Shown: in pieces, positions 1 through 28,773 of the stretch
Numbering within the stretch: position 1 is the first letter of the stretch
Layout of the letters: the number at the start of each line of letters is the position of its first letter
Assembly (NCBI GenBank): GCA_964016885.1
Contig: OZ024746.1
Location: 27,094,001-27,158,000 of the forward strand
Direction of reading: 5' to 3'
Source of the DNA: Eledone cirrhosa
Taxonomy: Eukaryota
Length of the DNA: 64,000 nt
Made by a program: the position numbers and the translations under genes
The notes under the pieces: generated by a model
Told to the model about the DNA's origin: nothing
Database searches by the model: none
The model's input: the letters and a program-made list of their open reading frames with translations, nothing else

Positions 1-250
1 GGTAATATCCGTAGTGGTAGAGCACTCAGTCCATGGGACGAGTTAGGTAGCAGTGGTAACACAACAGTTAGTTCACCATACCGAGAACAATTGTTTCACC
101 TTAGCGGATCCTCAACTCGTACCCCGGAGTACGAGCTGAGGATCCGCTAAGGTGAAACAATTGTTCTCGGTATGGTGAACTAACTGTTGTGTTACCACTG
201 CTACCTAACTCGTCCCATGGACTGAGTGCTCTACCACTACGGATATTACC
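1..250. mobile_element. Near-perfect palindrome (125 bp arms) carrying head-to-head hammerhead motifs; Penelope-like/retrozyme-like non-autonomous element, probably truncated by window start
   Basis: ggtaatatcc(1-10)...ggatattacc(241-250); axis at ccgg 124-127; mismatched pairs seen at 115/136 and 123/128; followed by (CT)n/(TA)n. Confidence 0.85.
132..169 (+). ncRNA. Minimal type I hammerhead ribozyme motif
   Basis: cgag|CTGAGGA(136-142)|tcc-gctaa-ggt|GAAAC(154-158)-AATT-GTT(163-165)|ctcg; stem I cgag/ctcg; palindromic loop III AATT; mirror copy on minus strand has C3U. Confidence 0.65.
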
Positions 251-265
251 TTCCAGTGTGATACC

Positions 266-690
266 TCTCTCTCTCTCTCTCTCTCAATCTCTCTCTCTCT
301 CTCTCTCTCTCTCTCTCTCTATCTCTCTCTCTCTCTATATATATATATATAATATATATAAATGAAAGTACAGCATATTCGAAGTTCCAGCAGCAGCTAA
401 GCCAACGAATGCCTTCAGCAGTGCAGCCAAGCACTCGACAAGGTATAGACTTCATATATATATATATACAGAAATATATGTTGGATAAAACAAGATATAT
501 ATATATATATATATATATACACACACACACAGAAATATATGGTGAAGAAAGCAAGACACGCACACACACACACACACACACACACACACACACACACACA
601 CACACACACACACACACACACACACACACACACACACACACACACACACACACACAGACACACACACACACACACACACACACATATATA
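266..690. repeat. (CT)n, (TA)n and (CA)n microsatellite cluster
   Basis: Direct dinucleotide runs; source of the CV/HT/YI pseudo-ORFs. Confidence 0.95.
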
Positions 691-1109
691 GTTCAAGAAA
701 CGACAAGACAAACGCTGAGTTGAAAAAACACAAACTCTTAGTATCTCGATTAGGAGTATGTAGAAGAGGGTTGTGTTTCGGACATAAGTTCTTCTTCAGG
801 AAACGGAGAAAGAGAGAGAGAGAGAGAGAGAGGGAGACAGAGTGAGTGAGAGAGAGAGAGAGAAGGTTGGAACATTAGAATTTGTGTAAGAAAGTTTTAA
901 GCAGGCTGGGGGGGGTAGGTGAGTAGTCCGGCATTCGAGAGTGGAGGTTGAGGTGGAGAATTCAGATGTGTCATGGGTATTCTTATGTATATATAGAATG
1001 CATTTCATGGGTGAGCATTATTGCTTCTGTGTGCGAGGTTTGTGTATGGTTGATGGAAGTGTGGTAGAGTGTGTCTGCGTGTGTTTGTTAATTTTACAAG
1101 AAGTTTGTG

Positions 1110-1612
1110 TATGTTTATATCTATATCAATTAACATCAAACTCTCCCCTTCTCTATATCTACTACACAGAATCCTCTTCCAATACCCTATAAACATTAAT
1201 CCCTCCCCCTCTCTATATCTAATATACAACACACTTCCCAAAATCCCTTCGCTATATCAATTACCAACAAACTATTGCCCTCTCTCTATGTACCATACAA
1301 CACTCTTTCTCATTCCCTCTCATTCTATCCATCACTCCCAAACTCTCCCCTTCTCTATCTCTATCAATCATCTCACTCTATTCATTACCACCAAAGTCTC
1401 TCCCTCTTTACATCAACCATACAACAGTCTCTCCCAATCACCCCTCTATATCAATTAACGCCAAACTCTTCCCCTCTTTATATCTACTACACGGAACTAT
1501 CTTCAAATTCCTCTCTCTATATCAATAAACATCAATCTCTCTCCCTCTCTATATCTACACACTCTCCCAACCTTCCTCTCTATAACAATTACCTAACTCT
1601 TCCCCCCCTCTA
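1110..1612. repeat. Degenerate CT-rich tandem/low-complexity repeat
   Basis: Recurrent ctctcccc(t)tctctatatc(t/a)a motif at roughly 60 bp spacing. Confidence 0.6.
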
Positions 1613-1836
1613 AAGCTGTATATATATCTCTCTCATCTGTCGCTCTATAACATGTACACAAATTGTAGCGTGTATACAAATAGACGTGTTATTTGGTAGT
1701 TTTTGGAGAAAATTATAATTATCGCATATATATATATATGCATATATATATATGCATATATATATATGCATATATATATATATATATATATATGCATATA
1801 TATATATATATATGCATATATATATATATATGCATA

Positions 1837-2036
1837 NNNNNNNNNNNNNNNNNNNNNNNNNNNNNNNNNNNNNNNNNNNNNNNNNNNNNNNNNNNNNNNN
1901 NNNNNNNNNNNNNNNNNNNNNNNNNNNNNNNNNNNNNNNNNNNNNNNNNNNNNNNNNNNNNNNNNNNNNNNNNNNNNNNNNNNNNNNNNNNNNNNNNNNN
2001 NNNNNNNNNNNNNNNNNNNNNNNNNNNNNNNNNNNN
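1837..2036. other. Assembly gap (N run)
   Basis: About 200 n characters next to a TA/TGCA satellite. Confidence 0.99.
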
Positions 2037-2039
2037 ATC

Positions 2040-25923: not shown

Positions 25924-26294
25924 TATATAATAAACGCATGATAACTTTTTAAATATTTTAAAATATATTTCCTTGTATGTCGTTCATAAGTATATGTTGT
26001 GTTTTATGCAGTGGCGGACTGGGTCTAAAAATATTGGTTGCCAGATGAAGGGGGCTCACCTACATATAGAATGCTACATATGGAATGCTAATTTTTATAA
26101 TGAATAAATAATATTTTCGAAAAATACATAATTGGAAAGAAAACAGTACAATCAAATTTTTGCGGAAAAATATCTCACCTTCTCCAATAAAAAATATTAT
26201 GTATTTTGCGAAATCCAGAGACTTTCAATAATGACCAGAAGTCGACCCTAAATATTACTAATAGCTCTAGGACACCACACCTTTTAAACTTTGA

Positions 26295-26598
26295 TTTTGA
26301 AAGTAGGTTTATAATAATCAATTTTCATTGCACTTTTGTATCTGTCTCGGTGGCCTAATTGGAGGAATCATAGACGGAGGTGATCCTGGTCTGAAGTTCG
26401 ATTCTGGTCGGGAGTAGAGCTCTCGCTAGACCTTTTCAGTTTTTTTTTTTCAATGGGTTGTAAAATAAAAACTGAGAAAGGTTACACCAGGATTGAACCC
26501 AAGGCCAGGATCTCCACTGTCTCTAGTACTTACCGCTAGGCCACAGAGACAACTACGAAAATCTAATGAAAATTCATACTTATAAACCTACTTTCAAA
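26295..26598. mobile_element. Inverted-repeat element whose two arms each carry a tRNA-like Pol III head
   Basis: ttttgaaagtaggttt...gtggccta..gttcgattc mirrored by gattgaacc...taggccac...aaacctactttcaaaa. Confidence 0.65.
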
Positions 26599-26839
26599 AT
26601 TTTCAATACAAAATTTTGCGGTGCCGTTCATGTCTTTCTTAATGTTATGGCTCCTACTTAAGATCGACTTCTAAATCATTTGGGTGTTCCATAAACTACA
26701 TCATCGTTTTGTTTCACATCTATCTAGACCATATTTTAACCTGTAACCCATGTTTCATTTCTATTGCACCTCATTTCTCCCCCCCCCCCTCTCTCTCTCT
26801 CTCCCTCTCTCTATATATATATATATATATATATATACA

Positions 26840-27039
26840 ACGAAGGAAGTGTGGTAAGGAACCAGGTGGACCAGAGTACTCGATACTATGGATAGTAGAG
26901 TGGGTAATAGGAAAAGAGTCAAAACCCCGACGGCAGAGCTCAAGCCGTTTCGACGGCTATTTCTGGACTGAAATAGAGTCCAGAAATAGCCGTCGAAACA
27001 GCTTGATCTCTGTCGCCGAGGTCTTGACTCTTTTCCTAT
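26840..27039. mobile_element. TA-embedded element with 63 bp-arm palindrome (26907-27039)
   Basis: ataggaaaagagtc...gactcttttcctat, loop gaaatag; gagtactc box at about 26873; CGAAAC present but no canonical CTGANGA. Confidence 0.8.
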
Positions 27040-27501
27040 ATATATATATATATATATATATGCTTGTGTGTCTGTGTCTATATATATATATATATATGTA
27101 TGTTTACATGAATGAATAAACTTTAGATTTAGTAGAATGTACAACCAGTGATTCCAGCTATTTGCACTATCGTATATTTTGGTTTCTAGTAATTCTCTGG
27201 GGAATTGGTTGACCAATGCTTTGTTTAATTATTTTATTTATTAAAAAAAATTGTTTATTCTTTCTTTTAGATTGGCTCCTAAAATACTACAGTGAGTCCT
27301 GCAATACTACTGTGGGCTCTTGCAATGCTACTGTGGGCCTGGGGGCCCCACATGTCATTGGGCAACCTGGCAACCTGGCTATCTGCCACTGTATATATGC
27401 ACCTGCGTATGTGCATTTATATGTATGTGTGTATGTGTAGATATGTTTGTGTGCATGTATATCTATGTACATGTGTAATAGTATACATATGTATACTATG
27501 T

Positions 27502-27705
27502 GAAGGCGTGTGGCTGAGTGGTTAGAGAATTGGATTCGCAATCGTAAGGTTGTGAGTTCGATTCCTGGACCAGGCGATGCGTTATGTCCTTGAGCAAGAC
27601 ACTTCTACCTGGAGTTGCGACCGATAGATAGTATTAGCAATTGGAAAGACCAACGGAAACATTGTTCCCACGGTCCGATTTGACGAAAGTCGATCGTTCC
27701 TTTAA
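27502..27705 (+). mobile_element. tRNA-derived SINE, second family
   Basis: A-box gtggctgagtgg, B-box gttcgattcc, tgtccttgagcaagacactt; near-identical to 58658-58877; A-tail. Confidence 0.85.
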
Positions 27706-28571
27706 AAAAAAAAAAAAAAATACATACGTATATTCCATCCACCACTTTATCCTGCCAATCCTACCAACCTTTTCACTAAACCCCTATACACCGACCTTCA
27801 CATTTATCCCCCTGTCTCCCACTCATCATATTCTATAATACATAGATACATGATCTAATAGTTGGCGACCATTTTTGTCCATGTGTATTAGCCACGTGAG
27901 TACAGGAATATTTTGGAAAGAGTAAATCGAAATAAAGATACGGAATAAATTCATCAGGAAGCTAACTGTACTCAATGGCCCAGGCCAACATTTATACCCA
28001 TTATATTAAATGGTACCACTCCCGTTTATATTTATTATACGTGTTCATCTCTTTTTGGCATGGAGAAGGTCGATTTCTTGGGAGAATAGTAAGTAGCACA
28101 GCTGATAGGATCTATGCCAATAAAATATCAGTTCATATTATACATACGCACACACGTACATACGCGCACACATACTGACACATACAGATATGTATGCATG
28201 TATGTATGTATGTATGTATGTATGTATGTATGTATGTATGTATGTATGTATGTATGTAGAATATAATAAATCACGTAAATACACCAATTTAGCCTACACA
28301 CACACACACACACACACACACACACACACACACACACACACACACACACACACACACACACACACACACACACATATATGCATACAAAAAAGTAAACGGA
28401 AACAACAATGCAAACGACACGGTACAGTGAAGAAATATATTTGTTTAATGCTTGACATAGTAGGAAAAGAGTCTTTATGTTTTATATATATATATATATA
28501 TATATATATAAATGTATGAAATATATATATATATATATATATATATATATATATATATATATATATATATA

Positions 28572-28773
28572 CGTAGGTCCCGGGTTGAGTCGGGGATAAC
28601 CACAGTAAGTAAGGTACTCAATACATGCAGAGTAAAAAATATTTATTGTATAGAAGGAGCTTCTACAGGACTAGAACTGTTTCATTCAGATGAAATCTTC
28701 AGGAATCTCCTGAAGATTTCATCTGAATGAAACAGTTCTAGTCCTGTAGAAGCTCCTTCTATACAATAAATAT
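28572..28773. mobile_element. TA-embedded element with perfect 66 bp-arm palindrome (28639-28773) of hammerhead motifs
   Basis: Arms identical by eye, 3 nt loop atc; right arm CTGAAGA(28710-28716)-tttcatctgaat-GAAAC-agttcta-GTC, then aataaa. Confidence 0.88.

What the first reader, a model, noticed from the sequence alone, without database searches (positions are those of the whole stretch)
1..28773. Palindrome axes sit just upstream of the ribozyme core in four unrelated elements
In 1-250, 16507-17030, 17178-17356 and 28639-28773 the fold-back axis lies roughly 3-15 nt before CUGANGA, giving two outward-pointing hammerheads. The same geometry in unrelated sequences implies a mechanism, for example reverse transcription stopping at the ribozyme and snapping back or switching template, or two cDNAs joined head-to-head at one TA target. 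A read-through transcript would form a long dsRNA that traps both ribozymes.
Basis: partly seen in the sequence, partly recalled or inferred. Interest (0 to 1): 0.85.

Follow-up and report, generated by a model that had tools for sequence, protein, structure and literature searches.

The report
Penelope fold-backs mark transcription starts
These small palindromes are head-to-head stubs of Penelope-like jumping genes, and their centre likely marks where the element's RNA begins rather than where a ribozyme blocks copying, which would give a genome-readable record of a step in Penelope copying that nobody has yet seen in a cell.

Summary
The four palindromes are real, with axes 4-15.5 nt before hammerhead cores. 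They are 5'-truncated, head-to-head ends of Penelope-like elements (PLEs). Such inverted ends, pLTR hammerheads and one-sided tails are published, and this scan noted one such stub in another genome. The 3-15 nt rule is not general: in an unselected sample 8 of 88 axes lie 3-20 nt upstream, 51 at or past the core start. Each family has its own sharp hot spot (-6, -8, -13, -17, -41, -44, +43), and junctions form anew at each insertion. Reverse transcription passes through the ribozyme, so a stop at it is not supported. The hot spots look like transcription starts: they fall on an initiator-like A, five of seven have a TATA-like box about 29-31 nt upstream, and 16 of 18 arms starting at that A (10 of 12 after strict curation) carry an extra non-templated G, against 27 of 115 elsewhere. 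Best reading: two internally primed short cDNAs run off the capped RNA end, one folds back, and they join. One of four held-out families confirmed this clearly. No RNA data were available.

The parts
1..263 (.). Element 1 (family W1): head-to-head PLE stub; both arms run to the far (tail) end, which is unusual; the left arm starts just before the window
132..169 (+). Minimal type I hammerhead, core CTGAGGA at 136, palindromic stem III CAATTG, predicted cut after 165
   Evidence: cleavage not tested
82..119 (-). Mirror hammerhead with mutated core TTGAGGA at 115 (C3 lost, likely inactive)
127..128 (+). Extra G (127) before the A at -8 (128), the family's commonest 5' end; inferred capped start
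16507..17072 (.). Element 2 (family W2): fold-back with spacer 16764-16775, cores at 16785 (+) and 16754 (-); element short end near 16881/16658
16900..17031 (+). Inverted copy of about 130 bp of the left flank (16507-16637), seen nowhere else in G000 by search or in the 2 Mb held; read as fold-back synthesis running into the target flank
17028..17072 (+). Last 45 nt of the family tail, joined to the copied flank through AGCA microhomology
17102..17370 (.). Element 3 (family W3, related to W2): tail on the left arm only; cores at 17274 (+, CTGACGA) and 17260 (-, CTGACAA, G8 lost); left arm starts at -13
28571..28775 (.). Element 4 (family W4): tail 28571-28638 on the left arm; cores at 28702 (-) and 28710 (+); left arm starts at -6, the family hot spot; a near-full parent element lies in L123
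26837..27039 (.).
56803..57045 (.). Sixth fold-back (family W5): axis 26 nt before the core (56968 +), tail on the left arm
29003..29281 (.). Asymmetric head-to-head insertion (family F1): inverted tail joined to a direct arm starting about 88 nt before the core at 29176; bounds read by eye

Best explanation
The palindromes are dead-end insertions of Penelope-like retroelements whose centre likely marks the capped start of the element's RNA. Shown: they are ends of PLE families with an RT plus GIY-YIG parent, one arm usually bears a 60-75 nt tail, both arms share one template's alleles, and each family has its own sharp 5'-end hot spot. Inferred: the promoter lies in the pLTR, so the two internal RT start sites lie roughly 60-240 nt after the cap in these families. 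The endonuclease cuts both strands of a TA tract, each end primes at one start site, and RT runs off the RNA 5' end, often copying the cap as an extra base. One cDNA end then folds back on a few complementary bases and copies itself, and the copy anneals to the other cDNA. The hammerhead is near the axis only because it sits near the start of the transcript in many families.
For: PLE identity: L123 is pLTR-ORF-pLTR with a 3068 bp period, and Hydra-type motifs are present. Two starts: 86 of 92 head-to-head pairs in three families have one tailed and one tail-less arm, as for the two RT starts in PMC11167929. One template: 24 discordant of 366 polymorphic site-pairs against 143 expected if independent. 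Hot spots: W4 tail-anchored 16 of 29 at -7..0 against 1.2 expected at a constant rate; F10 21 of 29 in 7 nt; W1 14 of 27; W2 10 of 15; W3 6 of 12; F29 4 of 6 (the W1, W2, W3 and part of the W4 sets were retrieved with core-overlapping queries). Solo copies without an inverted arm start at the same places. Promoter marks: TATA-like box 27-30 nt upstream in W4, F29, F10 and W3; family mode on a YCAK A in 4 of 7 families (P about 3e-4, motif chosen after looking). Cap mark: non-reference G before the hot-spot A in 16 of 18 usable arms against 27 of 115 others and 5 of 35 other A-starting arms; 10 of 12 after removing duplicates and ambiguous cases by hand (P = 7e-5). Held-out F11: 14 of 19 ends at -46..-37 below a TATATAAG box at -75, only 3 further upstream. 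Fold-back copying: element 2 duplicates 130 bp of its own flank.
Against: No RNA evidence for any start site. W1 and W2 have no TATA at the expected distance; the combined TATA test is weak (P = 0.063 over 11 families, 0.027 over 7). Three of four pre-noted predictions were not clearly met: F9 1 of 7 short copies at -28, F18 2 of 14 at -27, F30 no cluster at -24; that these are tandem-unit families is an after-the-fact excuse. The F11 prediction was not blind, as three ends at -44 had been seen. The extra G was noticed and tested in the same data, and the usable set was 133 of 320 arms. In W1, 11 of 27 outer ends lie upstream of the mode and need read-through RNA. The joining steps are inferred from end products only.
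Confidence: 0.68

Rival explanations
1. Same PLE stubs, but the hot spots are set by local sequence: RT pauses at RNA structure or the cDNA folds back wherever a short inverted repeat allows, or an antisense template self-primes as proposed in PMC3846280. No transcription start is involved.
For: Short palindromes lie at some hot spots (AGCT at W4 -6, GTAC at W1 -7); many junctions overlap by 1-6 nt; the F10 hot spot sits at the foot of the distal stem II hairpin.
Against: Does not explain the extra G at one base, TATA boxes kept across diverged subfamilies at the right spacing, or solo copies starting at the same base.
Confidence: 0.17
2. The ribozyme itself sets the axis: RT stops at the folded or self-cleaved hammerhead and snaps back or switches template.
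For: A few W4 copies begin at the predicted cut site: L256 and L273 of 29 tail-anchored copies, and L096, which joins cut site to stem I by 6-nt complementarity. Axes are within about 100 nt of a core in most families.
Against: Axes 5' of the core require copying through the ribozyme; no excess of ends at the cut site; hot spots range from -77 to +43 by family; ribozyme cleavage was not needed for insertion in vitro (PMC11167929).
Confidence: 0.09
3. The palindromes are small non-autonomous elements that move as a unit (MITE-like or retrozyme-like), with two hammerheads as working parts.
For: A few junctions recur (one F10 junction 4 times in 33).
Against: Nearly all junctions are distinct; arms are asymmetric; many have lost one or both cores; flanks are TA tracts without fixed termini.
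Confidence: 0.04
4. The palindromes are amplification or assembly chimeras.
For: No long reads could be checked; no contig spans a whole element.
Against: Arms differ by 0-5% and stop at element-specific ends; a contig from public run X1 bridges the axis of element 2 (16671-16805, 1 mismatch; may be the same sample); identical architecture is published for other animals.
Confidence: 0.02

Closest known systems
Inverted 5'-truncated pLTR copies of EN+ Penelope-like elements (PMC3846280, PMC8557442; passages read)
   Same: Head-to-head arrangement, palindrome at the junction, tail on one end only, TA-tract targets, self-priming proposed.
   Different: Those passages give no family-specific axis hot spots and do not tie the axis to a capped start; tails here are 60-75 nt rather than 30-40 nt.
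Minimal hammerheads in pLTRs (PMC4209133; parts 1-2 of 4 read)
   Same: Type I, short or palindromic stem III, long stem II, U3-A8 core variant, pairs on opposite strands 100-700 bp apart.
   Different: Here the pairs are mapped to junctions; in family F10 the inferred start lies inside the ribozyme, so only the downstream pLTR copy would be whole.
Hydra clade of C-terminal EN+ PLEs (PMC8557442, passages)
   Same: RW[KR], DKT, CxCx5C linker, CxxC and CxH around the E and N, short element, TA targets, hammerhead.
   Different: No tree was built; the L123 ORF is frameshifted.
PAc Poseidon in vitro (PMC11167929; parts 1-2 of 4 read)
   Same: Both target strands cut and extended; two internal RT starts that define the tail; ribozyme near the ORF start; cleavage not required.
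   Different: That work does not treat inverted copies or run-off at the RNA 5' end.
LINE-1 twin priming and cap-derived untemplated G (PMC4859970, passages); retroviral minus-strand strong-stop DNA (recalled)
   Same: Two primers on one insertion; extra G at full-length 5' ends; short cDNA running off the RNA 5' end.
   Different: L1 inversions do not duplicate the inverted part, whereas these arms overlap; no tRNA primer or true LTR.

Membership tests
EN+ Penelope-like element | Single ORF with RT and C-terminal GIY-YIG endonuclease in the parent | tested here: met
   L123 frames give RT-type motifs and a YIG domain that align with about 700-aa homologues. Shown for W4, endonuclease only for W1, not sought for W2/W3. 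Pfam and PDB scans gave no hit; motif labels come from PMC8557442 and recall.
EN+ Penelope-like element | Partial tandem forming pLTRs | tested here: met
   L123 repeats the ribozyme region 3068 bp apart
EN+ Penelope-like element | Adjacent inverted 5'-truncated copy and one-sided tail | tested here: met
   86 of 92 pairs
EN+ Penelope-like element | Hammerhead motif in the pLTR | tested here: met
Hydra clade | RWK-like, DKT, CxCx5C, CxxC/CxH motifs; TA targets | tested here: met
   RWR, SDKT, CDLC and CMH in L123; CSCRKPEAC in L125
Hydra clade | Placement in the RT phylogeny | not tested
   No named reference sequences were at hand
Minimal type I hammerhead | CUGANGA, GAAA, stems I-III, NUH site | tested here: met
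   6 of 8 arms canonical
Minimal type I hammerhead | Match to an Rfam hammerhead model | tested here: not met
   Best HH10 14.9 bits and HH9 11.1 bits, far below cut-offs; none listed for elements 1-3
Minimal type I hammerhead | Self-cleavage | not testable with these tools
   Only indirect: three W4 copies begin at the predicted cut site
MITE or unit-transposing palindrome | Fixed internal junction and termini across copies | tested here: not met
Non-LTR retrozyme | Head-to-tail tandem units each with a hammerhead | tested here: not met
   Window elements are head-to-head; F9, F18 and F30 elsewhere do look tandem
Pol II capped start at the axis | Extra 5' G, initiator, TATA spacing | tested here: inconclusive
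   G and initiator met; TATA seen in 5 of 7 hot-spot families (W4, F29, F10, W3 scored, F11 by eye); 1 of 4 held-out families clear
Pol II capped start at the axis | RNA 5' ends mapped there | not testable with these tools
   No RNA holder listed

The most novel reading that the evidence does not exclude
Penelope-like elements make strong-stop DNA: RT starts at two sites just after the cap of an ordinary mRNA, runs off the capped end, and must jump to the downstream pLTR to copy the ORF, which would explain how pLTR tandems are rebuilt. Failed jumps snap back and leave about 100,000 palindromes in this genome, whose centres map each family's promoter to the base, in one family inside its own ribozyme.
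Probability: 0.35. Interest if true: 0.78.

Novelty: new member of a known kind. Interest (0 to 1): 0.52.

Why it matters
How PLEs make their inverted ends and rebuild pseudo-LTRs is open (PMC2377424 says no mechanism is obvious; PMC11167929 leaves the later steps unvalidated). If the axis is the capped start, genome sequence alone gives base-level promoter maps for each family and a testable scheme that joins the two internal RT starts, self-priming and the one-sided tail. It also moves the hammerhead from cause to bystander. Scaled from 1.2 Mb, the genome holds roughly 110,000 such fold-backs and 270,000 hammerhead motifs (rough), a large source of potential hairpin RNA. The palindromes themselves are a known by-product.

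Tried and rejected
Rfam: whole-window and local scans gave only sub-threshold miRNA-type hairpin matches (only the best 150 of 552 rows were shown). Pfam and PDB gave no hit for the RT or endonuclease; the Atlas gave unnamed eukaryotic clusters with RVT_1 on 16-20% of members in lower hits. Minimum-energy folding gave the hammerhead fold for only one of eight arms, so the descriptor was used. Apparent solo hot spots at F1 -48, F2 -6, F9 -261, F18 -16 and W2 +35/+41 were subfamily boundaries of the reference copy and were dropped; that call's pooled rates upstream of the core are not used. The first tail-anchored W4 table and first F9/F18 table were spoiled by microsatellites and fold-back yardsticks and were redone. 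Arms from two different source copies: rejected for most insertions; a small excess over background (24 against 13.5, P = 0.005) may reflect mutable sites. A 3' splice site at the hot spot: copies keep the AG, and W2/W3 have none. Plain one-way snap-back: the tail-less arm reaches further 5' in 40 pairs, the tailed arm in 23, equal in 23. No RNA holder was listed. The 130-bp flank segment had no cover in runs X1-X3, which proves nothing. Rows dropped: 86 low-complexity and 22 satellite fold-backs of 188; L025 and L089 pairs; 80 of 168 mapped fold-backs as query-biased or mapped on one arm. PMC5785218 was not held.
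Full report
Observation. The window lies in a 3.0 Gb, microsatellite-rich animal genome (G000). A fold-back scan found eight non-microsatellite palindromes in the window. The four named ones are real, with arms 95-100% identical and axis centres 10.5, 15.5, 7 and 4 nt before outward-pointing hammerhead cores (the minus core of element 1 is at 115, one base off in that script). Six of eight arms have a canonical core, stems and GUH site. Rfam models do not reach threshold, but a structural descriptor finds 121 hits in 1.2 Mb against 5-10 in shuffles. 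Two other palindromes in the window break the stated rule: 26837-27039 folds inside stem II and 56838-57045 folds 26 nt upstream.

What they are. All four belong to repeat families. A near-full copy of family W4 (L123) is pLTR-ORF-pLTR with a 3068 bp period and a frameshifted RT plus endonuclease ORF. It and a long W1 copy show RWR, SDKT, CxCx5C, CxxC and CxH motifs that PMC8557442 lists for the Hydra clade (passages). W2 and W3 are 74% alike. Head-to-head inverted copies with junction palindromes (PMC3846280, passages), pLTR hammerheads including opposite-strand pairs (PMC4209133, parts 1-2) and one-sided tails are published.

Is the axis tied to the ribozyme? I took 120 evenly spaced 10-kb stretches. 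Of 188 raw fold-backs, 80 remained after removing low-complexity ones and one satellite. Adding flanks of loci fetched for other families, 88 unselected fold-backs mapped on both arms (44 from the even sample). Eight lie at -20..-3, 51 at or after the core start, 27 beyond -20, and 2 at -2. Families differ and are each tight: F10 mostly +38..+50, F1 -54..-91, W4 -7..+14, F29 -36..-44. With a query confined to the tail, 16 of 29 W4 copies end at -7..0 against 1.2 expected. Ends are not enriched at the cleavage site, although L256, L273 and L096 begin there. Junctions are nearly all distinct, so the palindromes do not move as units.

How the arms arise. In 86 of 92 pairs one arm has the tail and the other does not; the tail-less arm reaches further 5' in 40, the tailed arm in 23, neither in 23. 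Arms share alleles at family-polymorphic sites (24 discordant of 366, 143 expected if independent). Element 2 copies about 130 bp of its own left flank into the right arm and then joins a tail fragment through AGCA (the genome search can skip common words). Inferred: both target strands prime, one at each internal start site (shown in vitro for PAc, PMC11167929); one cDNA folds back and copies itself; the copy anneals to the other cDNA. In element 2 the second cDNA was short, so the copy ran on into the flank.

What sets the hot spot. Long copies show TATAAATA, TATAAAAC, TATTTAAA and TTTAAAT 27-30 nt before the W4, F29, F10 and W3 hot spots; W1 and W2 have none (combined P = 0.063 for 11 families, 0.027 for 7; matrix recalled). 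The modal end is on the A of YCAK in 4 of 7 families, and W1 and W2 have that motif in some subfamilies. Arms that start on this A carry a non-reference G just before it in 16 of 18 usable cases, against 27 of 115 other ends; hand curation leaves 10 of 12. Untemplated 5' G is taken as the mark of a copied cap in LINE-1 and SVA (PMC4859970, passages). In D. virilis Penelope the start is 46 nt before an intron whose end abuts helix I, so a start shortly before the ribozyme has precedent. Predictions noted before searching were met clearly in F11 (14 of 19 at -46..-37; 20 of 41 hits fetched; not fully blind), weakly in F9 (1 of 7 short copies) and F18 (2 of 14), and not in F30 (20 of 42 hits fetched). 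Those three look like tandem-unit families with mostly long copies.

Artefact check. Arm differences, element-specific ends and a public-run contig across the axis of element 2 argue against chimeras; long reads were not available and the run may be the same sample.

Print check. Eight searches of the held library listed no paper tying PLE inversion points to a capped start or to strong-stop DNA; most hits were seen only as listings, subscription journals are missing, and supplements were not read. The 2026 retrozyme preprint (parts 1-2 of 5) and PMC8490949 (passages) did not address it in what I read.

Verdict. The positional signal is real but family-specific, and most likely records the RNA 5' end (about 0.68). 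The further claim of a strong-stop jump that rebuilds pLTRs is untested (about 0.35).

Noticed in passing
window 8404-10260 (-): Open 618-aa frame with LINE-type RT motifs and a C-terminal cysteine cluster (label recalled, not scanned); GC-rich against its surroundings.
   Followed up: no
window 31106-31990 (+): 294-aa frame resembling a pogo-type DDE transposase (recalled).
   Followed up: no
window 25496-25930 (+); 33548-34563 (-); 49453-50102 (+): Fragments resembling a PIF1/Helitron helicase end and RTE-type LINE pieces (recalled).
   Followed up: no
window 5249 (+), 10919 (-), 15592 (-): Further hammerhead-bearing PLE ends (families F1, F11, F12); the one at 10919 starts at -44 and has an inverted piece upstream.
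   Followed up: partly
window 22048-22162 and 59441-59532: Fold-backs without a hammerhead core; the first looks like a SINE hairpin (recalled), the second like a PLE 3' end.
   Followed up: no
window 2600-8200; N gap near 1834-2033: About 5.5 kb of TA/TGCA microsatellite beside a 200-N assembly gap.
   Followed up: no
L307-L366, L387-L406: Hammerhead families F9, F18 and F30 occur as head-to-tail units (F9 spacing 464 and 932 bp, also 3265 bp; F30 316 bp), retrozyme-like, with few short copies.
   Followed up: partly
L143, L181, L149, L135: Three families (F10, F29, F30) use the U3-A8 core variant TTGANAA; in F10 the TATA-like box forms part of stem II.
   Followed up: partly
L256, L273, L096: W4 copies starting at the predicted cleavage site; L096 switches from the cut site to the 5' strand of stem I through their 6-nt complementarity, a hint of cleavage in vivo.
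   Followed up: partly
L217 (G000:C7:30000001-30010000): AT-rich satellite with units of about 275 bp, each holding an internal palindrome.
   Followed up: no
many loci, e.g. L083, L104, L183, window 17028-17164: PLE stubs of different families pile up in the same TA tracts, often back to back.
   Followed up: no
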